DNA of 64,000 nt from Candidatus Bathyarchaeota archaeon. GTDB lineage: Archaea; Thermoproteota; Bathyarchaeia; Bathyarchaeales; Bathycorpusculaceae. The position numbers and the translations under genes are program-made. The notes under the pieces were generated by a model, which had not been told where the DNA came from, did no database searches, and worked only from the letters and a program-made list of their open reading frames with translations. Below are positions 1,099 through 62,028 of the stretch, one piece after another. The stretch covers positions 160,001 to 224,000 of the forward strand of contig CAVZIW010000006.1 of the NCBI GenBank assembly GCA_963775465.1. Reading direction: 5' to 3'. Numbering within the stretch: the stretch's first letter is position 1; each line of letters opens with the position of its first letter.

Positions 1099-1590
1099 TT
1101 AACTTTCGGTCTTTAGCGGGGTAATATGTTTTTTACCGCTTAGGTAGTTAATGTCAATCCTGCCCATGGTGGTTTTCTGCAGTTTTTCTGGCTTGATTTT
1201 GGAGAGCTTTAGTTCAGGGTTTGGGGCTACTTGAAGTATGAGAACTTGTATTGCGTGCCATTTTTCCTTAAGTTCAGAAATAAGACTAAATGTGCCACTG
1301 AAGTGAACGCATGTGTAAGCATAGTCGCATTCGTCAGTTACACCGAAATCCAGCACTGCCTGACCCCATACGCGGTTGTTGGACTGTGCATAAATCAGCT
1401 TTTTACCTTGGGGTGCACAATGAAAATATAGGCAGTTTCTTATTTCGTCATATCCATGGCTCAAAGCTACGAGGTAAGGCTCATTGTCTTTGCTGAGTGC
1501 GATAGTGACATATTTTGTGGTTTTTAGAACTTGACGCATTTCAGTGAGGTCAGTGATTTCGCGTTCTTTGCGACGGACATGAAACGACAT
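1099..1590 (-). CDS. Pyridoxamine 5'-phosphate oxidase-like / NimA family flavin-binding protein
   Basis: 'RRKEREI...PYLVALSHGY...LYFHCAPQGKK' signature; RBS GGTG upstream of ATG 1590. Confidence 0.85.
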   Translation of the reverse strand: MSFHVRRKEREITDLTEMRQVLKTTKYVTIALSKDNEPYLVALSHGYDEIRNCLYFHCAPQGKKLIYAQSNNRVWGQAVLDFGVTDECDYAYTCVHFSGTFSLISELKEKWHAIQVLILQVAPNPELKLSKIKPEKLQKTTMGRIDINYLSGKKHITPLKTES

Positions 1591-1623
1591 ACTTCTCACC
1601 TAATTGATTTGATGCTGTTTATT

Positions 1624-2139
1624 TTAGCGTTTGCCCCTGTGGTAAGTTTTTGCTATCTTGTTTTTGATGAAGCCAATTACGCTAGGAGTAAATATGGAAA
1701 GCGACGCCAAGGCAAAGTTTAACGGGAAAACCATTGGGTATTCAAATAGATTCCCACCGTATGACCCCATGATATTTTGGAGGTTACCCCAAAGCTGAAA
1801 GAGTGACCAGAGGCTTGTCCACAGCAATGCGCCTCCAAGTCGAGCTAAATATTTTTGCTTTCGAGTGAATCCTTCTTTGTGAAGGTTCGTGTATAGAATT
1901 TCTCCTGCAACTGCTCCTGCGCCTCCTGGAAAAAAGGCGTTAACCAGAATCTTCTCCACTAAATTACCTGGAATATAGTGATCAACCCATGGAACTGCAA
2001 GCAAACTTAAACCGGGGAGTAGAACGTTGCCTGTTACTACTCGAACCAAAACTGGTAGCGCGTATATGACTGCGCCGCCAATTTGCCAAACCCAAAATCG
2101 TTTCGACCTAAACAAGTTTGCAATTGCATTCAAGCGCAT
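1624..2139 (-). CDS. Hypothetical membrane protein
   Basis: Several TM segments; TATA-like 'tttttatata' ~25 nt upstream of ATG 2139. Confidence 0.6.
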   Translation of the reverse strand: MRLNAIANLFRSKRFWVWQIGGAVIYALPVLVRVVTGNVLLPGLSLLAVPWVDHYIPGNLVEKILVNAFFPGGAGAVAGEILYTNLHKEGFTRKQKYLARLGGALLWTSLWSLFQLWGNLQNIMGSYGGNLFEYPMVFPLNFALASLSIFTPSVIGFIKNKIAKTYHRGKR

Positions 2140-2213
2140 AGCAACTAAGAATTCTTGATTATATAAAAAACCTTTCAGCAATAAAGAGAAGAAGTCATCG
2201 CTAATAGTGTCTG

Positions 2214-3161
2214 TTAAGGGCGATAACCGTTAAGAGTCGCTAAGGCTAGTGCAGAGGCAGTTAAATCCGCCGTTGTTCCCGGGTTGCATTTGTTTCCTGA
2301 GGAGCGGAGTTTCTTGTCAAAGGCTTTAAGACTTTTTCTTCCCTTGATTGTCTCGAGTCCGCCGAGTTCTAGCACAATTTTTGCTTCTGATGATACTTCA
2401 AGGGCTTTTTCTTTGCCGACTTTTCGGGCTATGAATGTGTCTGGTCGTGTTGAAAGGATTTTAAGGAATGTATGTACGATTGTAACGTTTAATGGCTTAT
2501 GATTCAGTTGTTGCTCTAAGTAGGGATAGGCCAAGTCAAAGGTTACAGGGTAATTGTTAACCCATTCGTGACAAATATCATCGTAGTCTTGAGCTAACTT
2601 GAATACTTCAAATAATCCAACATTTTCCTTAATCAACCGCTCTTTTGAGTTTGGGTTAGAAACATCCAAATCGGGTGCACCGCCTAAACCACTTGGATTT
2701 GCAATATCCACTGCTTCATACAGATGCACTGAATCCACAGCGCTTGTGGATTTAACTACTGTTTTTAGGTTTCTGCGCATAACTGAAAAATCAATAGCTG
2801 TATCTTTTTTTTGCGCCGTCATGCCAGCAGCGACCGCTAGAGGTACAAGCAGCATAATAGTTCCCAAAATCGTGTTGCCTCCTCGCTGCCAAACTGCAAC
2901 ATTCATTGCACAAACTTTAATCAACTCACCAACACCGACTTTGCCTGCCTCAAGCCTGCCTTCTAATACCTCCACACCGCGTTGAGCTGCTTTTTGAAAT
3001 GTAGGTCCAACTGCAACCGCAGAAGCCAAAAAATGCTCCGCTCTGGTTCCTTGAAAACCTGTTTCAAAACCCACGTTTCCAGGTTTTTGAACGCTTACCT
3101 CAAGAACGGTTGCTAACTGTAGACAGCGCGATATGTTTTGGGTTTTTTCGCAGTTACTCAT
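2214..3161 (-). CDS. citG: CitG/MdcB family triphosphoribosyl transferase (archaeal type)
   Basis: 'LEVSVQKPGNV', 'NTILG', 'DTFIARK', 'NPGTTADL' motifs. Confidence 0.88.
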   Translation of the reverse strand: MSNCEKTQNISRCLQLATVLEVSVQKPGNVGFETGFQGTRAEHFLASAVAVGPTFQKAAQRGVEVLEGRLEAGKVGVGELIKVCAMNVAVWQRGGNTILGTIMLLVPLAVAAGMTAQKKDTAIDFSVMRRNLKTVVKSTSAVDSVHLYEAVDIANPSGLGGAPDLDVSNPNSKERLIKENVGLFEVFKLAQDYDDICHEWVNNYPVTFDLAYPYLEQQLNHKPLNVTIVHTFLKILSTRPDTFIARKVGKEKALEVSSEAKIVLELGGLETIKGRKSLKAFDKKLRSSGNKCNPGTTADLTASALALATLNGYRP

Positions 3162-3233
3162 TGATAGCTCTAGCTATTCTGGTTCAAAAAAGCTTTATTA
3201 AAGTTTTTAGGCTTCAACCTTGAAGCGTTTATT

Positions 3234-4250
3234 ATGATGCCTCGAGAAGGGGACTTAATCAAAACAAAAAGCGGTGTAGTCTTTGATGTTAAGGGACTTA
3301 TTCATCCACCAAGTAAAATTATTGCGTTTCCACGCTTTATTCCATCGCCCGAGGGTACCCGAAAAGGCAAAAATGCGACTTATGGCAAAATTTACAGTCT
3401 CGGTGACCGGTTCAATTATCTGCAGCAGAACCATCCTGACCTCATAGTTTTTGACCCTGTTTTCGGTGAAACTCTCTGCGAAGTGCCCTTTAGCCATATT
3501 GCCACGCACTATCGGCCAACAGAAAAACTCGCTTCACTTCTCAAAGCTAAACATCTAACAGAACTCGAAAACAAGGCTTTACAGCTTGCGATAAGGCTAA
3601 AAGAAAAAGCCAAAATTCCATGGAGCGCTATTGGTATTTCAGGTTCGATCATGGTGGGTTTAACTAATGAAGCCTCAGACATTGACCCCCTTGTTTATGG
3701 CACAGAAAATAGCCAAAAAGCATACATTGCACTGCAGAAGCTCCGTTGTGAAGCGGATTCAGACTTCAAACCCTATACTCAAGATGAACTCCACGATCTC
3801 TTCGACTTTCGTTCGAAAGATACACAGATGAGCTTCGAAGACTTCGCAGTAGTCGAAAGTCGTAAAGCTTTCCAAGGAAAATTCATGAAAACCGATTACT
3901 ACATTCGATTTGTGAAAGATTGGAGTGACCTCAATGAACAATATGGCGACATGTGTTTCAAAAACAGTGGTTATTCAAGAATAGTAGCCACCACAGCTGA
4001 CAGTTCCAACGCACTTTTCACTCCCTGCACTTACAAACTAAAAGACGTGCAAGTGCTTGAAGGACCCAAACTTGCACCAATTGAGGAAGTGGTGTCTTTT
4101 CGCGGAAGATTCTGTAAACAAGCCTTCGACGGAGAAAAAATTGAGGCGCAGGGCAAAGTTGAGTTAGTGACAAACAAGAAAAATACTGCGAAACATTACC
4201 GTTTAATTCTAGGCAATAAGCCTGCCGATTATATGGTGCTATTGCGTTAA
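3234..4250 (+). CDS. Nucleotidyltransferase, COG1665-like, paralog 1
   Basis: Pol-beta motif 'GISGS...SDID'; N-terminal 'REGD...F.VKG..HP'; C-terminal 'IEAQGKVE'. Confidence 0.8.
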   Translation: MMPREGDLIKTKSGVVFDVKGLIHPPSKIIAFPRFIPSPEGTRKGKNATYGKIYSLGDRFNYLQQNHPDLIVFDPVFGETLCEVPFSHIATHYRPTEKLASLLKAKHLTELENKALQLAIRLKEKAKIPWSAIGISGSIMVGLTNEASDIDPLVYGTENSQKAYIALQKLRCEADSDFKPYTQDELHDLFDFRSKDTQMSFEDFAVVESRKAFQGKFMKTDYYIRFVKDWSDLNEQYGDMCFKNSGYSRIVATTADSSNALFTPCTYKLKDVQVLEGPKLAPIEEVVSFRGRFCKQAFDGEKIEAQGKVELVTNKKNTAKHYRLILGNKPADYMVLLR

Positions 4251-5320
4251 TGAATTACTTTTAGGACTTGTTCGTAGTAGCGTGGGCAATAAGTAAGGGT
4301 GATTTGGCTGAAACTATCCTTTGGAGAATCAATCTCCTCTAAGTTGCCTTCCACGACTATGATTTCGTCTTTTTTGGCTTGTTGGCGGAACTCCTCCATA
4401 TAAGAGAAGATACGCGTCACTCCCATTGCCTCTTTTGGACCGCTTAACACCTCTAAGGGTTCTATGCCATATACCGATGGAATAAACGGTGAATCCTCGT
4501 CGGTGGTTACGCGGGCTCGGATTCTTGACCAACCCCTCTGCATGATGTGTGCCTTGGGGTTATATTCCGATTTGATTTCGTTCCAAGCTTTCACAGGCTC
4601 AAACTCAGCCTTAATCACTCTGCCACTATCTTTACGGTCATCATACAAGCCGTAAATCATCTTGCGGCGTTGATGCCACACAAAATCTTTAACATCAAAG
4701 TTTTTGAATCGCCAATCTTTACCTTTCATGACTTCATAGGATTCAAACTCGTTTTTTAAACCAGAATTGTTGTCAGCATAAAGTTCACTCATGGTTTGGC
4801 AAATTTTTGCGTTTTCTTCTTTGCCATAAATAGTAAAATCAATGTCTGAATATTTTGGGTGATGAAAACCATGGAGCATGGATCCGAAAACGCCGAAACT
4901 TTTTGAAGACACACCTGAAATTTTAGTCGTTATACCCAGGACCTTTTCCATTGCTGATAACAAGGGATCAATTGGTCCTGTCTTTAGCAGTTCTTCTAAA
5001 CGTGGTTGTGGTTGTCTGGCTTCAATGATTAAGTTTTGAGGAACGCCAACGATTCTTAACCCCAGCATTTCATGGTTAACAAGGTAATGAGGATATTTTT
5101 TTGTGACGAGTTTCATGCCTTCGTCATTATAGAATTTGTAGTAAAGTTCGCCTCTGCCTTCTCTGGGCGCCCGTGGATCTGTTGAATGGAAAATCTTTGA
5201 GGAAGCATATTCAGCATCACAGATGTAGCTGTCTTTGGGGTGGCTGTAACCGAAGACTCGGAAAATTATGCCTTCGGCTGTTTGAATAGCATCGCGGTCG
5301 CGCAGGTTTAGATTGGCCAT
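4247..5320 (-). CDS. Nucleotidyltransferase, COG1665-like, paralog 2
   Basis: 'GVFGS...SDIDF', 'RDRD...FRVFGYSHP', 'VVEGNLE'; ATG 5320 overlaps the stop of the upstream paralog. Confidence 0.8.
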
Positions 5321-6408
5321 ATGTATTCTTCTTCTGAAGTGGCTGTTCCGACAACAACTTGGTAGAAGACGCTGCCGTCTTTGATGCTTTGGGCTTTTTC
5401 GAGGGTGCCTGCGACTTTTATTTGTTGTCCAGCTCTTGCAACGTTTCGGTAGCAACCGATGTTTGAAGTAACGATGGTTGGTGTTTGTTCGAGGGCAATT
5501 TCACTTTGGGCGTCTTGTGGTTGATAGTGGCTTATTCTGTAGATTGCAGGTCGATACATCGTTTGTGTGTCACTGCAAACTGTTGCGGTAAATCTCAGCT
5601 GGGAAAGAGGCGTGAAAGTATAATCGCCGTATTGAATTTTTATTTCATCAGGTTTCTTGGTTGCATTGTACATCCATATTTTGCCCTGATATTTTCCTAC
5701 AAACTTTCGGGCTGCTTCGATGCGGTTGCCCGCGATGTATGTAAATTTCGCTTCATTAACAAGACGCTGTATGGCTTGTTCAACTTGGCGGAAGTTTTCT
5801 GTGCCATAAACGACAAAGTCTATGTCTGATTCAGGTGCATGCATCTCCAATGCAATTGAACCATGAATGCCCAAATCACTTTTTGGAACACCTGCTTCTT
5901 TGGAGACTATATCAATTAGTTCAAGTGCTAGTGATTGGAGGCTATCGGGGTTCTTTAGGTTCTGTAGCCAAACGAGGCGATCTTTGGGCACGAATACTTG
6001 CTCGATTTTTTCCAGAGGTGCCGTTATTAGTTCTTTGCTTCGGGTCTGGTCGTAAAATAGGTAGTCGGGGAAAGTTTTTCGGAATGCTTCGATGAATGTT
6101 TGATAGTTTTTAGCAGTGTACAGTTTTTCAGCGCGAAAAAGCTGGCTGGTCATTGGGTTTGTACCAAAACGCCATGTACGTGAGAGCATTTCCACTTTGA
6201 AAAGTGCTTTGTACTGAGCTGGAATATACTTGAGAAATGCGAAGACACGGTCGTCGGGGTGTTCATACCCAAAAGTGTTCATGATAAAACCGTCTTTAGT
6301 GACGAATGTGTCTCCATCCATCGGCGTCCAAATTTGTGGTTCTTCTTCCGTAATCGTGCACCGCAAAAATAAGGTTGGACGTTGATTAAAAAAGCTATTT
6401 GTCAGCAA
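5308..6408 (-). CDS. Nucleotidyltransferase, COG1665-like, paralog 3 (true start probably ~6354)
   Basis: 'GIHGS...SDIDF', 'MDGD...GYEHP', 'KVAGTLE'. Confidence 0.8.
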
Positions 6409-6566: not shown

Positions 6567-7235
6567 ATGGTTTCCACTGGCATTGAAGATTTAGACCATA
6601 TTCTTGAAGACAGAGGTTATCCTGATAGGTCTGCAATTTTATTAATTAGTCCTCCAGGCGCCGGGAATGCACCCCTTGCCTATCTATTCCTGAAGTACGG
6701 CTTTAAGTGTGACGACACTGTAATGTGCCTCACCTCCAAGCCAATTACTGATTTACTAAATGACATGGCAGTTTTCGGCGTAAACAAGCAATCACCTGCA
6801 CAATACATCCAATGCTACGCAGATACATCACCCTACAGCCTAAACAACTTGACAAATCTCTTTATCAATATTAAAAAACAAATAGACACACTCACAGCTG
6901 AGCATAAAAGAATATACATAGACTTTCTTTCAGCTCTCTACATGTTGCATCCCGCTAAAACAGTCTACACATTTATCTGCGGACTTATTCAATACCTAAA
7001 AGACCAGGGTGCAACTATCGTAGCCAGTCTCGACGAAGGAGTGGTCGCTCTTGAGGCTCAACGTTCGATGGAAATGGTGTTTGATGGAGCTATAGAAATA
7101 AAAATCTTTGAAGAACGCTTCAACATAATACCATTAATGAGGGTTAAGAAAATGATGAGCCAAACCCCTTCTTACAATTATTATCGACTTGCCGTCTCAA
7201 AAGGAGAAATACATTTCCATGATTTCAACACTTGA
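6567..7235 (+). CDS. KaiC/RAD55-like protein with degenerate Walker A
   Basis: 'VSTGIEDLD', 'SPPGAGNAP' (no GKT), 'FDGAIEI', 'RVKKM'. Confidence 0.75.
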   Translation: MVSTGIEDLDHILEDRGYPDRSAILLISPPGAGNAPLAYLFLKYGFKCDDTVMCLTSKPITDLLNDMAVFGVNKQSPAQYIQCYADTSPYSLNNLTNLFINIKKQIDTLTAEHKRIYIDFLSALYMLHPAKTVYTFICGLIQYLKDQGATIVASLDEGVVALEAQRSMEMVFDGAIEIKIFEERFNIIPLMRVKKMMSQTPSYNYYRLAVSKGEIHFHDFNT

Positions 7236-7953
7236 AATTGTTCTCCTTCTCATAGGGACCGCAACCGTGCTTGCATTAGCATACAGTTCATTTTGGGCTT
7301 TCTCAATCAGAAGAGCACTCTATGAAAAAACCTATCGCCAACGAGCATTATGGACAGGTGCCTTCGCAACCTATAGCGCCTTAGAAATTGCTCTTATCGT
7401 CTATTTTCCGCACATTATAGGTTCATTAGCTATCAACATTGCTTGGCTTATCCTTGGTAGTGCATTATTACTTATATTGACTGTCTGGGCTTCCAGTAAC
7501 ATAAAAGTAGTTGTCTCTCTTGACCCGTATCACAAAAACCGCATGAAATGGCTTCAAACAAAAAAAATAGTTTGGTTAATTTCAATTCTTATCGTTGCTA
7601 TGAACATAGCTCCAGCACTCTACCTGCTGGGATACATTGATTATGCCCCTGTTTTTACCTTTATTAATACTTTGCAATTGACCTTCTTTGTAGCCCTCTT
7701 GGTATACCTGATTTCAGTAGCTCTGGCTTACCAATCTGTAATTCATGACAAACTTATGAAAGCATACCTCGAATCTTTCCTCTTCCTGCTCATAATACTA
7801 ATGTTAAACATCGTGCTATCGCCCGTATCTTCAGCTCTGGGTCTTTTTATAGGGCCATTTGCATTAACCGACAGCCTATTAATTCTCTCAGCATTCTTCC
7901 TTTATCGAATGTCAAAATCACTAGTTCCGGTAATAACAAAAATAAACCTGTAA
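7219..7953 (+). CDS. Seven-TM membrane protein, putative sensor
   Basis: About 7 hydrophobic helices; ATG overlaps the end of the KaiC-like gene. Confidence 0.65.
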   Translation: MISTLEIVLLLIGTATVLALAYSSFWAFSIRRALYEKTYRQRALWTGAFATYSALEIALIVYFPHIIGSLAINIAWLILGSALLLILTVWASSNIKVVVSLDPYHKNRMKWLQTKKIVWLISILIVAMNIAPALYLLGYIDYAPVFTFINTLQLTFFVALLVYLISVALAYQSVIHDKLMKAYLESFLFLLIILMLNIVLSPVSSALGLFIGPFALTDSLLILSAFFLYRMSKSLVPVITKINL

Positions 7954-8219: not shown

Positions 8220-8978
8220 CTATTTTTCGTTAAATATAGACATTGAAGGGTACACTTCAATCCCTGTTTGATCAATTGTATAGGGCACAAGACTTGGATT
8301 CACACTAACCCCTCGCATCTTTGAAACTTGGATGCCTCGAGAAGTTGTTCCACCCATGAAATACGTCTGCATCATTACAACGCCATGAACAAGAAATTCC
8401 TCGTCTGAGATTTTACGTTCAAGCCCTATCTGGCTCAATTCCGTTGTTATGAGAACTGTCACTCCCAAATCTGAAAGTGCCTCAATTAAGTCTACTCCCG
8501 CCGTTCTTCGTTCTGTCAAATCAGTGAACCGATAGAACAATGCAGCTAAAGAGTCAATAATTACCCTCTTAGCGTGTATTTGTTTAATTTTTGCTTGCAG
8601 TTCCTCTATAAGTTTATCGATTTCAAGGGATTTTCCTCTTAGACTACTGGACTCTACCTTCATCATTTTTTCTTTCAACATAGCTACTCTGGAAAGTCTT
8701 GTTGCATCTATGAAAGCAAATTTGCCTTCTTCCTCAGCTTTTTGAAAGTCCCAACCGAAATTCTTCATTTCTGAAAAAAAATGATTTTTATTTTCATCTA
8801 GACTGACCATTATTCCGTCTTCGTTAAATTCACTCAATCCTTTGTATAAGAACTGGGATGTTAGAACAGTTTTTCCAGTGCCTGGTCCTCCTATTACCAA
8901 GATTACTCTTCCTCTTGGGAAACCTCCACTCATTAATTCATCTAATCCGGGGACTCCAGTTGGAACCGTTTCTGTCAT
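8220..8978 (-). CDS. KaiC/RAD55-like single-domain ATPase
   Basis: 'TGVPGLD', Walker A 'GGPGTGKT', Walker B 'RVIIDS', 'KMRG'. Confidence 0.9.
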   Translation of the reverse strand: MTETVPTGVPGLDELMSGGFPRGRVILVIGGPGTGKTVLTSQFLYKGLSEFNEDGIMVSLDENKNHFFSEMKNFGWDFQKAEEEGKFAFIDATRLSRVAMLKEKMMKVESSSLRGKSLEIDKLIEELQAKIKQIHAKRVIIDSLAALFYRFTDLTERRTAGVDLIEALSDLGVTVLITTELSQIGLERKISDEEFLVHGVVMMQTYFMGGTTSRGIQVSKMRGVSVNPSLVPYTIDQTGIEVYPSMSIFNEK

Positions 8979-9094
8979 TTGATTCACCGTTCAAAAAGTC
9001 AATTATTGGATATTTATAAGTTGCGTCAAAAATTAAAGTGGAGAAACCACAGTTGCTGTTTCTTTTCCATCTATCTTTAACTAACTTTTAATGA

Positions 9095-10090
9095 TTATGT
9101 TATCCCGAGAGAGATTTTTAAAACATCCACTTCTAGATTTCCAGCTCGGAATGTTTTGCCTGTTTTTGCGTTAGTTATTGCGACTACTGCTGGAGCAAAT
9201 ATATTTGTGTCGATTTTGTAGAAGTCAAAACCTGCTTCTTTGAAGATATCCATAAAACGTGGACTCTTTTGCGACAAGCGTTTTGCTTCTTTTAGAAACT
9301 CTGAAGCAGACGATGGAGCTTGCCTAACTATATTCTCAAGGGTTGCTTCATCATCGTAATTGCCTGTATAATTAGTTACGCCGCCATACAGGATTGCGTC
9401 ATTTGTCCTCCCCATAGCTTCACCTGCATTAGGATGGACGGGAACTATTGGAGCATATCCCCACGCATGTTTTACTGTTAGTAGGTCAAGTCCAAGTCTT
9501 TCCAACTTATGCAAGCCTGTTTCCACGATTCGACCAGAAACCTGTGTAGCGCCTGAGAGACTAGTTGTAGAAAACATGACCACAAACAAGTTTTTTGTTG
9601 AGACATTACATTTTAAGGCTATTTGTTCAAGAACTGCTTCGGGTGGAGTTGCTTCGGTCTCCAAAACGATTACTGCAATATCTGATTGTTCTTGATGATT
9701 GAGTTTCGTGTAAAGGCCTTTTGGTTTAAGGGCAAGTGCTCTTGCTGGTCCAGAAGCAATTGCCGAATAATTCTCACCTTTTATTTGCCAACCCGCGAAC
9801 TGTGACCCTAATAGCGACAGCGCAGGATGGTCTGTCTGGATAAATACTGAGGGCAAAACAATGTCTTCATATTGTACTGGCATTATAGTGGCTCTTCCAT
9901 ATCCTGCTAGACATATTTCTGTTATAACTTCGCCAGCTAGATATCCTCCTTGAGCATTTATGCCTGCGTCAATTATGGTAGCGCCTACAGAGCTTTTTTC
10001 CACCAAAACTCCATATCTATCAGCATCATCGACTAACTTGTTAAATAAACGCATAGCCGACTTATTTAGGTTGATTTTTGGTGAGGACAT
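9095..10090 (-). CDS. mch: Methenyltetrahydromethanopterin cyclohydrolase
   Basis: 'GSQFAGW', 'SGPARAL', 'QVSGRIVETG', 'MGRTNDAILYGG', 'DFYKID..FAPA'. Confidence 0.93.
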   Translation of the reverse strand: MSSPKINLNKSAMRLFNKLVDDADRYGVLVEKSSVGATIIDAGINAQGGYLAGEVITEICLAGYGRATIMPVQYEDIVLPSVFIQTDHPALSLLGSQFAGWQIKGENYSAIASGPARALALKPKGLYTKLNHQEQSDIAVIVLETEATPPEAVLEQIALKCNVSTKNLFVVMFSTTSLSGATQVSGRIVETGLHKLERLGLDLLTVKHAWGYAPIVPVHPNAGEAMGRTNDAILYGGVTNYTGNYDDEATLENIVRQAPSSASEFLKEAKRLSQKSPRFMDIFKEAGFDFYKIDTNIFAPAVVAITNAKTGKTFRAGNLEVDVLKISLGIT

Positions 10091-10285: not shown

Positions 10286-10921
10286 TTATTTTTTGATTTC
10301 TACGTTGCATTTTGCGTTCTGCGGCATCGTCAAATGTAGCACCTTTTGGACTCTTTGTGCAATCAACCATGCTATAGGAATGGTATACAAGGCTAAGGTC
10401 GCGTTGAAGAATGCTGCAAACGGTAAGTAAGCATTTGTTACTGCCTGGTCGAATCCAAAGCTTGCAAAGCCGATTGGTGCGGGTTGTGGAAGAGCAAAAT
10501 AGAGCAAAACTGACATTAAAACTACGCGAGTTAAGATTCCTGTAGCGGTTGCGATTGTTGCCCATTTGATGCTGAAGAGAATGTTTGCATCCGGATTATT
10601 TTTGCAGGCGATTCTTTTGCCTATTGCTACGATTGCGTAAATACCAATTTGCATAGATAGAGTGGCTGCGAGGTTGTATGCTGGTCCGGTTGGAAGTATG
10701 CCTGGGAAGATCGCGAATAGAACGGCAGTGTTTACTAGTGAAACAGCTATTCCTGTTATTGGACTGATTATTAGGAACGCGATTACGATTGGGATTTCCC
10801 ATACTTGATAAATAAGTCCGTTAGCGAGTGGAAAGTTGAGGGATATGTGTGTGAAGGTTGGGTTTAATGCGATTGCTATGGCTGCGAAGACTATTGTCAA
10901 GGTGAGTTTTTTGGTATTCAT
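10286..10921 (-). CDS. ECF transporter S component
   Basis: 6 TM; 'AAIAIAL...YQVWEIPIVIAFL...G...FNAT' pattern. Confidence 0.7.
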   Translation of the reverse strand: MNTKKLTLTIVFAAIAIALNPTFTHISLNFPLANGLIYQVWEIPIVIAFLIISPITGIAVSLVNTAVLFAIFPGILPTGPAYNLAATLSMQIGIYAIVAIGKRIACKNNPDANILFSIKWATIATATGILTRVVLMSVLLYFALPQPAPIGFASFGFDQAVTNAYLPFAAFFNATLALYTIPIAWLIAQRVQKVLHLTMPQNAKCNVEIKK

Positions 10922-61443: not shown

Positions 61444-62028
61444 ATGACTGAAGCAAAAATTAAAAAAACCAAAGTCGCTTGGGGAATTACAGGCGCAGGC
61501 GACAAAATAGCTGAAATTATTGAAACCATGAAAGACCTGAAGAAACAGTCAGAAGGAATCGTTGAAATCCACGTCTTCCTTTCCAAAGCAGCCGAAATTA
61601 TGCTTAAATTTTACCGTCTAGAAGATGATTTGCGCCAAAACTTTGCCAAAGTCACGGTTGAATCAAATTCTAATTCACCGTTTTTGGCAGGCATGATGCA
61701 GAGTCACAAATACGAGTTTCTTCTGATTTTTCCGGCATCATCAAACACAGTTGCAAAAATAGTCAACAGCATCAGCGACACGCTGCTCACGAATTCAGCG
61801 CTTATGAGCCTCAAAGCTTTTGTTCCAGTGTGGATTATGCCAGTGGATTTTAAAGAAAACGTAATCTACACTAAACTGCCCAATGGCAAGGAAATGAAAT
61901 TACGGGTACGCAAAGAGGAAGCAGATCAGGTCCGTAAACTTGAAGCAACGGAAGATGTTCATGTTTTTGAAAATCCTCAAAAAGTACGTGAGGCCTTTTT
62001 GAACTGGCTAAAAACCGTTAACGGATAG
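61444..62028 (+). CDS. afpA: Archaeoflavoprotein AfpA family
   Basis: 'VAWGITGAG', 'NSNSPFLAG', 'PASSNTVAKI..SISDTL', 'MPVD'. Confidence 0.82.
   Translation: MTEAKIKKTKVAWGITGAGDKIAEIIETMKDLKKQSEGIVEIHVFLSKAAEIMLKFYRLEDDLRQNFAKVTVESNSNSPFLAGMMQSHKYEFLLIFPASSNTVAKIVNSISDTLLTNSALMSLKAFVPVWIMPVDFKENVIYTKLPNGKEMKLRVRKEEADQVRKLEATEDVHVFENPQKVREAFLNWLKTVNG

What the first reader, a model, noticed from the sequence alone, without database searches (positions are those of the whole stretch)
2214..6408. CitG homologue plus three paralogous nucleotidyltransferases near mch: candidate machinery for the methanopterin tail
Seen: citG is divergent (72 bp) from a Pol-beta-type NTase, which converges on two more overlapping paralogs, all with intact GS...SDID motifs; mch is ~2.7 kb further on and afpA is elsewhere in the window. 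No citrate lyase or malonate decarboxylase gene is in the window. Known: CitG/MdcB use ATP to attach an alpha-linked triphosphoribosyl group, and their partners CitX/MdcG (NTase superfamily) transfer the phosphoribosyl product to a hydroxyl with PPi release. H4MPT ends in ribitol-alpha-ribosyl-5-phosphate esterified to 2-hydroxyglutarate, and a CitG homologue (orf7) is part of methylotroph H4MPT clusters, whose cofactor lacks the hydroxyglutaryl phosphate. Inference: CitG triphosphoribosylates the pterin precursor and these NTases form the phosphodiester; three paralogs could mean alternative or iterated caps, i.e. a new pterin variant.
Basis: partly seen in the sequence, partly recalled or inferred. 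Interest (0 to 1): 0.8.

Follow-up and report, generated by a model that had tools for sequence, protein, structure and literature searches.

The report
Candidate methanopterin tail-building gene cluster
A soil archaeon carries a CitG-like gene beside three related, unstudied nucleotidyltransferase genes, and comparative genomics ties them to synthesis of the one-carbon cofactor methanopterin, so they are testable candidates for late steps that I recall as still unassigned.

Summary
The window, from a Bathyarchaeia genome, holds these genes:
- a CitG-family gene, 2214-3161(-);
- NT1, 3234-4250(+), divergent from CitG by 72 bp;
- NT2, 4247-5320(-), and NT3, 5308-6321(-), which overlap;
- mch 2.7 kb further on, and afpA at 61444-62028.

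All three nucleotidyltransferases (NTases) keep the GS...SDID motif.

**For it**
- In 201 genomes of the phylum, 88 have both the NTase family and CitG, 10 only the NTase, 3 only CitG.
- 94 of 100 genomes with mch or MptG have the NTase, against 4 of 101 without.
- An NTase lies within 8 kb of CitG in 30 of 91 CitG loci, in 11 of 24 families, including mch-less Sulfolobaceae.
- Elsewhere the paralogues sit among ftr, mtd, fwdDBAC and mch, or beside MptG-like genes.
- One protein fuses a pterin kinase (HPPK) to the NTase.

**Against it**
- The three paralogues are old, widespread groups, not a peculiarity hinting at a new pterin.
- No similarity to CitX or MdcG was found.
- The fold (small barrel, Pol-beta core, OB fold) looks like RNA-handling proteins.
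- Methylotrophs and other archaeal phyla could not be searched.

The chemistry is inferred. This scan reached the same reading earlier on other genomes.

The parts
2214..3161 (-). CitG-family gene (ATP-dependent triphosphoribosyl transferase family), archaeal type
   Evidence: PF01874, E 2.7e-67, full length. It scores far below the bacterial CitG/MdcB equivalog cut-offs: 53.5 bits against 280, C-terminal third only. PDB 3h9p, E 3.3e-16.
3162..3233 (.). 72-bp divergent intergenic region between CitG and NT1
   Evidence: Coordinates; sequence read. No promoter analysis was done.
3234..4250 (+). NT1, paralogue group A: small beta-barrel, Pol-beta NTase core and OB fold
   Evidence: Motifs. AF2 model, pLDDT 95.5. 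Fold matches. Group A in the tree. This is the paralogue that usually sits next to CitG.
4247..5320 (-). NT2, paralogue group B
   Evidence: NTP_transf_2, 26.2 bits. 27% identical to NT1. Group B, 4 rows, support 100/100, seen only in mch-bearing genomes among those sampled. The start at 5320 is my choice of the first ATG that aligns with the family; the open frame runs to 5455.
5308..6321 (-). NT3, paralogue group C, sister to the widespread group D
   Evidence: NTP_transf_2, 25.0 bits. 27% identical to NT1. Group C, 3 rows, support 100/100. The open frame runs to 6408.
9095..10090 (-). mch, methenyl-H4MPT cyclohydrolase
   Evidence: PF02289, E 1.6e-106; TIGR03120 above its cut-off.
61444..62028 (+). 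afpA (archaeoflavoprotein), about 55 kb away and not part of the cluster
   Evidence: TIGR02699, 218.2 bits against a cut-off of 192.45; PF02441.

Best explanation
The CitG-like enzyme and the NTase paralogues form one conserved archaeal module. It works on the side chain of methanopterin-type (H4MPT-like) C1 cofactors.

Proposed steps, all inferred:
1. The CitG-like enzyme uses ATP and releases adenine. It puts a 5-triphospho-alpha-D-ribosyl group on the terminal ribitol hydroxyl of the pterin-arylamine precursor.
2. An NTase then does CitX/MdcG-type chemistry. A hydroxyl, that of (S)-2-hydroxyglutarate in methanopterin, attacks the alpha-phosphate and pyrophosphate leaves. The product is the ribose-5-phosphodiester cap.

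The paralogues (group A plus group D in most lineages; A, B and C here) are either subunits of one enzyme or enzymes for separate transfers.

What is shown: the gene linkage and the tie to methanopterin genes. What is inferred: substrates, order of steps and products.

My odds: about 0.7 that the module belongs to methanopterin-type cofactor synthesis, and about 0.35 that the chemistry is exactly as written.
For: **Co-occurrence in 201 genomes of the phylum**
- NTase family in 98, CitG in 91.
- Both in 88, NTase only in 10, CitG only in 3, neither in 100.
- Of 100 genomes with mch or MptG (E <= 1e-15), 94 have the NTase; of the 101 without, 4 do.

**Adjacency**
- Of 91 CitG loci taken with 8 kb on each side, 30 hold an NTase, and in 22 it is the next called gene. 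These lie in 11 of 24 families.
- All 7 of 7 Sulfolobaceae genomes show it, with the two genes overlapping by 32-59 bp.

**Methanopterin context**
- In G069 the order is NT, NT, ftr, NT, mtd, fwdD, fwdB, fwdA, fwdC, mch.
- The same fwdD-fwdA-fwdC-mch block recurs beside NTases in four families: f5, f7, f34 and f35.
- CitG lies 4.3-7.2 kb from MptG in 6 of 9 f22 genomes.
- DUF447 is the gene next to CitG in 13 genomes of 4 families. In this genome DUF447 sits just upstream of MptG.
- An NTase lies 71-77 bp from an MptG-like gene in G180 and G187.

**Controls and fusion**
- CitG, MptG and DUF447 ring in the same four archaeal control genomes.
- P0167 fuses HPPK (residues 8-134) to the NTase (residues 173-504).

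**Canonical partners missing:** no CitX, MdcG or citrate-lyase ACP in this genome.

**Chemistry (recalled, from no call):** CitG makes an alpha-ribosyl link from ATP. CitX and MdcG are NTase-superfamily enzymes that form a phosphodiester with release of PPi. Methanopterin's ribose 5-phosphate is alpha-linked.
Against: - No biochemical or genetic datum for this NTase family was found.
- No Pfam match to CitX or MdcG in any of 31 members at E <= 1.
- All three domains resemble nucleic-acid-handling modules. The NTase core matches Pol X and TUTases at Z 7-8. The OB fold matches SSB, RPA and MCM at Z 6-7.7. The N-terminal barrel matches KOW, Sm and Tudor domains at Z < 5.
- The co-occurrence is phylogenetically structured. 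The 100 genomes with neither gene sit mostly in a few large families (f9, f13, f15, f18), so independent events are few.
- Ten genomes have NTases without a CitG match, several of them 95-98% complete.
- 28 of 50 mch-bearing genomes have no clear MptG.
- The HPPK fusion is a single protein. It did not recur in 201 genomes or in the metagenome scan.
- As I recall it, White's extract work named PRPP, not ATP, as the ribosyl donor. I did not see that paper.
- Euryarchaeal methanogens and methylotrophs could not be searched for the NTase.
Confidence: 0.5

Rival explanations
1. Same pathway, different chemistry. The module acts on the methanopterin-type side chain, but the NTases do something else. 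They might adenylylate the ribose 5-phosphate, or activate the hydroxy acid, before transfer. They might serve other late steps, or act as non-equivalent subunits. The ribosyl donor may be PRPP.
For: All the context evidence of the main reading fits this equally. Three to five paralogues with intact motifs are more than one phosphodiester step needs. The extract work I recall used PRPP and a separate ATP-dependent hydroxyglutarate step; I did not see the paper.
Against: It leaves the tight CitG-NTase pairing, including overlapping genes in Sulfolobaceae, without a direct chemical reason. A PRPP donor would be expected to give a beta link, not an alpha link; this is an inference from known phosphoribosyltransferase chemistry, recalled.
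Confidence: 0.2
2. RNA-directed enzymes. The NTases tail or modify an RNA such as a tRNA, possibly on a ribosyl group installed by the CitG-like enzyme. The cofactor-gene context would then be coincidental or regulatory.
For: The domain make-up is a KOW/Sm-like barrel, a Pol-beta core most like Pol X and terminal uridylyltransferases, and an SSB/RPA-like OB fold. In NT1 both the N-terminal and the OB part are basic, pI 9.3-9.4.
Against: No RNA-processing or tRNA-modification gene turned up among the recurrent neighbour families that I annotated. Those were CitG, DUF447, ftr, mtd, fwd, mch, MptG, a membrane protein, PmbA/TldD and a protein with weak Bud32/APH kinase-fold matches. The family was not found in 97 of the 101 genomes that lack mch and MptG, though these share the archaeal translation apparatus. 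One protein fuses it to a pterin kinase. All fold matches are below Z 8, which the tool itself calls a common level.
Confidence: 0.12
3. Another small molecule. The module builds or repairs a different phosphoribosyl-containing cofactor or metabolite that happens to co-vary with methanopterin genes, for example one related to methanofuran.
For: fwd (formylmethanofuran dehydrogenase) genes are among the neighbours. The function of DUF447 is unknown.
Against: Sulfolobaceae keep overlapping CitG and NTase genes and MptG but gave no mch match. The MptG and HPPK links point to the pterin.
Confidence: 0.08
4. A protein prosthetic-group system like citrate lyase. CitG makes triphosphoribosyl-dephospho-CoA, and the NTases attach it to an unknown carrier protein.
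For: This is the only biochemically known role of the CitG family (recalled). The match to PF01874 is full length.
Against: No citrate-lyase ACP, CitX or MdcG in the genome. The protein scores far below the CitG/MdcB equivalog cut-offs. No small carrier-like gene recurs beside it.
Confidence: 0.05

Closest known systems
CitG + CitX (citrate lyase) and MdcB + MdcG (malonate decarboxylase) prosthetic-group systems
   Same: A CitG-family enzyme is paired, often in one operon, with an enzyme of the Pol-beta NTase superfamily. The proposed logic is the same: an ATP-derived alpha-triphosphoribosyl group, then phosphodiester formation with PPi release. The chemistry of the known systems is recalled.
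   Different: There is no acyl carrier protein, lyase or decarboxylase, and no CitX or MdcG match. The NTases are about 340 aa with an added N-terminal barrel and a C-terminal OB fold. The acceptor would be a small hydroxy acid and the ribosyl acceptor a pterin precursor. There are one to five paralogues instead of one.
orf7 of methylotroph H4MPT gene islands (Methylobacterium/Methylosinus)
   Same: [quoted passage not shown] That orf7 is CitG-like and needed for dephospho-H4MPT is recalled. The source papers were not held.
   Different: It is bacterial. As I recall it, its cofactor lacks the phosphate and hydroxyglutarate. Whether those bacteria lack the NTase family could not be tested here.
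Terminal uridylyltransferases and Pol X family polymerases; SSB/RPA-type OB folds
   Same: These are the best structural matches to the NTase core (Z 7.1-7.9, 84-91 residues aligned) and to the C-terminal domain (Z 6-7.7).
   Different: No sequence-level family match beyond NTP_transf_2/Polbeta. The genomic context is cofactor metabolism, not RNA or DNA metabolism.
CofC/CofD (2-phospho-L-lactate activation and transfer in F420 synthesis)
   Same: This is a precedent, recalled, for joining a hydroxy acid to a cofactor through a phosphodiester made via a nucleotide-activated intermediate.
   Different: As I recall, the folds are unrelated. No homology was tested or claimed here.

Membership tests
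CitG family (PF01874, triphosphoribosyl transferases) | Full-length match to the family profile above the gathering score | tested here: met
   227.8 bits against a cut-off of 27, profile positions 2-283 of 284.
CitG/MdcB proper (triphosphoribosyl-dephospho-CoA synthase equivalogs) | Score above the NCBIfam equivalog cut-offs | tested here: not met
   The best is NF002315, 53.5 bits against a cut-off of 280, covering residues 202-311 only. TIGR03132 scores 41.6 against 282, and TIGR03125 33.2 against 272.
CitG/MdcB proper (triphosphoribosyl-dephospho-CoA synthase equivalogs) | Partner genes in the genome: CitX or MdcG, and the lyase or decarboxylase acyl carrier protein | tested here: not met
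   PF03802, PF10620 and PF06857 gave no match in the 92%-complete genome. E. coli rang as a control for PF03802 and PF06857.
CitG/MdcB proper (triphosphoribosyl-dephospho-CoA synthase equivalogs) | ATP plus dephospho-CoA gives the triphosphoribosyl product plus adenine | not testable with these tools
   Needs an enzyme assay.
Pol-beta-type nucleotidyltransferase superfamily | hG[GS] motif and [DE]x[DE] metal-binding motif | tested here: met
   G137, S138, D149 and D151 are invariant in the three paralogues and in 31 family members.
Pol-beta-type nucleotidyltransferase superfamily | Profile match (NTP_transf_2) above the gathering score | tested here: met
   NT2 scores 26.2 and NT3 25.0 bits against a cut-off of 21. 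NT1 alone scores 16.8, below it. 29 of 31 family members match at E <= 1.
Pol-beta-type nucleotidyltransferase superfamily | Structural likeness of the core | tested here: inconclusive
   Pol X, Pol beta and TUTases match at Z 7.1-7.9 over residues 105-231. The tool says Z under 8 is common.
CitX / MdcG (phosphoribosyl-dephospho-CoA transferases) | Match to PF03802 or PF10620 | tested here: not met
   No such family among the matches of 31 members at E <= 1.
CitX / MdcG (phosphoribosyl-dephospho-CoA transferases) | Structural likeness | tested here: inconclusive
   No CitX or MdcG chain among the rows shown. I do not know whether one is solved.
Methanopterin-type cofactor biosynthesis genes (functional class) | Phyletic pattern follows the marker genes MptG and mch | tested here: met
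   94 of 100 genomes with a marker have the NTase, against 4 of 101 without, within one phylum. The genomes are related, so independent events are few.
Methanopterin-type cofactor biosynthesis genes (functional class) | Recurrent neighbourhood with known pathway genes | tested here: met
   ftr, mtd, fwd and mch; MptG; DUF447.
Methanopterin-type cofactor biosynthesis genes (functional class) | Loss of the cofactor on deletion, or activity on a pathway intermediate | not testable with these tools
   Needs genetics or biochemistry.

The most novel reading that the evidence does not exclude
The NTase family supplies the enzymes, still unassigned as far as I know, that cap methanopterin-type cofactors through a phosphodiester. 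Its paralogue repertoire would then encode lineage-specific tails: one copy in Sulfolobaceae, an A+D pair in many lineages, three to five copies in Bathyarchaeia. On this reading Bathyarchaeia would make a methanopterin derivative, not yet described, with extra or alternative phosphodiester-linked groups.
Probability: 0.15. Interest if true: 0.8.

Novelty: new variant of a known kind. Interest (0 to 1): 0.65.

Why it matters
Methanopterin carries C1 units in methanogenesis, in anaerobic methane oxidation and in the archaeal Wood-Ljungdahl pathway. As I recall it, the steps that add the alpha-ribose 5-phosphate and the hydroxyglutarate have had no assigned enzymes since the pathway was outlined in extracts in the 1990s. 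My searches of the held library found no assignment. Most subscription papers are not held, and supplements were closed.

A conserved CitG-like plus NTase module gives concrete candidates that can be tested by expression, LC-MS and gene deletion. If right, it would:
- extend the CitG/CitX logic from protein prosthetic groups to a soluble cofactor;
- give function to an archaeal family with 915 representatives at 50% identity;
- improve metabolic reconstruction of uncultured archaea, including the question of which of them make the cofactor and which salvage it.

Tried and rejected
- **Sequence search of PDB.** NT1 and the family profile gave nothing below E 0.18.
- **Foldseek on the full model and on the N-terminal domain.** No match at E <= 0.001.
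- **Family libraries.** Pfam and NCBIfam gave no specific family for the NTases.
- **Complex prediction, NT1 with NT3.** No verdict, score 0.00. This is evidence neither way.
- **Fused forms.** The search for proteins longer than 593 aa found none. The one HPPK-NTase fusion, P0167, did not recur in 201 genomes. The metagenome scan found two loci with HPPK-only relatives and no NTase, CitG, MptG or mch in them.
- **Reaching other phyla.** The narrower alignment returned mostly Bathyarchaeia: 77 of 80 loci carry a Bathyarchaeia, Bathyarchaeota or Bathyarchaeales label. 'relatives' stayed within the order. So methanogens, haloarchaea and methylotrophs were not searched for the NTase.
- **Naming distant members.** The cluster look-up named only one, from Korarchaeota.
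- **Papers.** Those on methylotroph orf7 and on archaeal pterin genes were not held. Two held papers did not mention CitG.
- **'Three paralogues = genome-specific novelty'.** Rejected on the tree and on the 80 related loci.
- **Charge.** pI figures did not discriminate between RNA and cofactor binding.


Full report
**What is in the window**

The window lies in a Bathyarchaeia genome. It is G000:C6:160001-224000, in an assembly of 2.4 Mb that is 92% complete. The closest loci all carry Bathyarchaeia or Bathyarchaeota titles.

- a CitG-family gene at 2214-3161(-);
- 72 bp away and divergent, NT1 at 3234-4250(+);
- converging on NT1 with a 4-bp overlap, NT2 (open frame 4247-5455, family-aligned ATG at 5320);
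- upstream of NT2 on the same strand and overlapping its start by 13 bp, NT3 (open frame 5308-6408, ATG at 6321);
- mch at 9095-10090(-);
- between NT3 and mch, two KaiC-like ATPase genes and a membrane protein;
- afpA at 61444-62028.

CitG matches PF01874 over its full length, E 2.7e-67. It reaches only 53.5 bits against the 280-bit cut-off of the best bacterial CitG/MdcB equivalog model, and only over its C-terminal third.

NT2 and NT3 are each 27% identical to NT1. The three share 40 invariant columns, including the G-S and S-D-I-D motifs. They are the only members of the family in this genome. The genome gave no match to CitX, MdcG or the citrate-lyase ACP.

**What the NTases are**

They belong to an uncharacterised family, archaeal as far as members could be named.
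- 2,296 proteins scored E <= 0.001 among 3,157 candidates in the 90% library. The best 120 were listed; those with a name are called only 'predicted nucleotidyltransferase', 'uncharacterized protein' or 'hypothetical protein'.
- 915 representatives were found in the 50% library.
- No Pfam or NCBIfam family is specific to them, and no relative has a solved structure by sequence.

The AlphaFold model of NT1 is confident (pLDDT 95.5, pTM 0.91). It has three parts:
- an N-terminal small beta-barrel with a helix, residues 1 to about 105. Folded alone it gave pLDDT 90. Its best matches are KOW, Sm, Tudor and SH3-like barrels at Z below 5, which is not informative;
- a Pol-beta-type core, residues 105-231, with Z 7.1-7.9 to Pol X, Pol beta and terminal uridylyltransferases;
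- a C-terminal OB fold, residues 242-338, with Z 6-7.7 to SSB, RPA, MCM N-terminal domains and AspRS anticodon-binding domains.

All these Z values are in the range the tool calls common. No CitX or MdcG chain appeared in the rows shown.

**Linkage of CitG and the NTases**

I searched an even sample of 201 genomes of the phylum.
- The NTase profile matched 98, CitG 91 and mch 50.
- MptG (TIGR00144) matched 87 at E <= 1e-5. I kept the 72 at E <= 1e-15, to drop cross-hits to other GHMP kinases.
- Both NTase and CitG: 88. NTase only: 10. CitG only: 3. Neither: 100.

I then took 8 kb on each side of every CitG gene, 91 loci in all.
- An NTase lies within that range in 30, and is the next called gene in 22.
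- These fall in 11 of the 24 families that have CitG.
- In two further genomes, G073 and G137, the NTase runs off the contig end right after CitG (coordinates).

The 11 families include f24, which names returned by a protein search identify as Sulfolobaceae. There a shorter NTase of about 300 aa overlaps CitG by 32-59 bp in 7 of 7 genomes.

Among the 80 closest Bathyarchaeia loci:
- 73 hold CitG, and in 71 it is within 1.5 kb of an NTase;
- 65 hold three or more NTase ORFs;
- 40 hold mch within 10 kb.

So the arrangement in the window is typical of its lineage. The CitG-NTase pairing is old and has been kept through rearrangements: divergent here, co-directional or overlapping elsewhere.

**Link to methanopterin**

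The family is not tied to mch as such. 52 of the 98 NTase-bearing genomes gave no mch match, among them all the Sulfolobaceae. It does follow the union of mch and MptG, the committed enzyme of methanopterin synthesis: 94 of 100 genomes with either marker have the NTase, against 4 of 101 without. Two of those four are 76-77% complete.

Neighbourhoods point the same way.
- In G069 the order is NT, NT, ftr, NT, mtd, fwdD, fwdB, fwdA, fwdC, mch. The fwdD-fwdA-fwdC-mch block recurs next to NTases in four families.
- CitG lies 4.3-7.2 kb from MptG in 6 of 9 f22 genomes.
- A DUF447 gene is the immediate same-strand neighbour of CitG in 13 genomes of four families. In this genome DUF447 sits just upstream of MptG, about 38 kb before the window.
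- In G180 and G187 an NTase is 71-77 bp from an MptG-like gene. That gene scores E 1e-23, below the curated cut-off.
- CitG, MptG and DUF447 ring in the same four archaeal control genomes: M. jannaschii, H. volcanii, S. acidocaldarius and M. acetivorans.
- One protein, P0167 (505 aa), joins a pterin pyrophosphokinase domain (HPPK, E 3e-40, residues 8-134) to a full NTase (residues 173-504). It is a single cluster member seen on two contigs, and I did not see the fusion again.

**The paralogues**

I built a tree of 37 sequences: the window's three plus 34 from 17 genomes of 11 families. One weak row was left out. It resolves four groups:
- A, 15 rows, including NT1;
- B, 4 rows, including NT2;
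- C, 3 rows, including NT3;
- D, 15 rows.

The mch-less families sampled (f17, f22, f32) carry an adjacent A+D pair. B and C were seen only in mch-bearing genomes. C is sister to D, with support 90/91.

The three copies are therefore ancient, not a peculiarity of this genome. What remains is a weaker observation. Copy number differs by lineage, from one in the Sulfolobaceae examined (one clear match adjacent to CitG, plus a weaker second match in some) to five matches in some Bathyarchaeia. Whether the paralogues are subunits or separate enzymes is open.

**Mechanism**

The best reading is that the module works on the side chain of methanopterin-type cofactors.

1. A CitG-type enzyme transfers the ribosyl triphosphate of ATP, with inversion, to an alcohol. 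That would give the alpha link that methanopterin has.
2. An NTase then joins the alpha-phosphate to the hydroxyl of 2-hydroxyglutarate with loss of pyrophosphate, as CitX and MdcG do with a serine.

This rests on recalled knowledge of CitG, CitX and MdcG and of the methanopterin structure, not on any call.

Points against it:
- the RNA-like look of all three NTase domains;
- the lack of any detectable likeness to CitX or MdcG;
- ten genomes with NTases but no CitG match;
- my recollection that extract experiments used PRPP as the ribosyl donor;
- the phylogenetic clumping of the negatives, which means few independent events.

I put about 0.7 on the pathway assignment and about 0.35 on the exact chemistry.

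**Known or new**

- PMC3615186 (passages seen) lists orf7 as an H4MPT-linked gene in an mch-orf5-orf7 island. It does not call orf7 CitG-like.
- That orf7 is CitG-like and required for dephospho-H4MPT is recalled. The papers were not held.
- PMC8305020 (passages seen) treats the haloarchaeal MptG-like and mch homologues as folate-linked and does not mention CitG.
- Nine full-text searches found no paper that links an NTase to methanopterin synthesis. The library lacks most subscription journals, and supplements were closed.
- This scan has reached the same reading on other genomes. Those notes are unchecked AI notes. One of them gave me the lead to look for fusions.

**Verdict**

Noticed in passing
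Phylum sample: 28 of 50 mch-bearing genomes gave no clear MptG match (E <= 1e-15). Several of them are 95-100% complete Bathyarchaeia that keep CitG and the NTases: G013, G133, G148, G093, G101, G141. Either they have a divergent RFAP synthase or they salvage a precursor.
   Followed up: partly
L157:6581-7339(-) and 12 other genomes: A multi-pass membrane protein of about 250 aa, with no Pfam or NCBIfam match, lies next to CitG in most of its 13 genomes (7 families): 12 of the 14 copies are within 90 bp. It could be a transporter for a cofactor precursor.
   Followed up: partly
window 1624-2181(-) and 10286-10921(-): Two membrane-protein ORFs without family matches. One lies 32 bp downstream of CitG, the other just downstream of mch. 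They did not cluster with the CitG-adjacent membrane family.
   Followed up: partly
window 6567-7235(+), 7189-7953(+), 8220-8987(-): Two KaiC-like ATPase genes and a membrane protein lie between NT3 and mch.
   Followed up: no
P0167: A 505-aa protein fuses an HPPK (FolK-type pterin pyrophosphokinase) domain to a full NTase of this family. It was seen on two contigs and not found again in my searches.
   Followed up: yes
L237:1850-4159(+) (G125:C77): One 769-aa open frame joins an NTase of this family to an M20 peptidase domain. It is a single MAG contig, so an assembly artefact is not excluded.
   Followed up: partly
L116:7593-9152(+) and 6 other loci: In mch-less families f17, f22 and f32 the A+D NTase pair is flanked by a protein of about 520 aa with weak APH/Bud32 kinase-fold matches, and by a PmbA/TldD-type gene.
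   Followed up: partly
L077 and L110: Two contigs titled as bacterial MAGs (Limnocylindrales, Sulfotelmatobacter) encode NT1 relatives at 70% and 59% identity. L077 also has the two further NTases. These are probably mis-binned archaeal contigs.
   Followed up: no
window 1099-1599(-): A Pyridox_ox_2 / Nim-like flavin-barrel protein lies two genes downstream of CitG.
   Followed up: no
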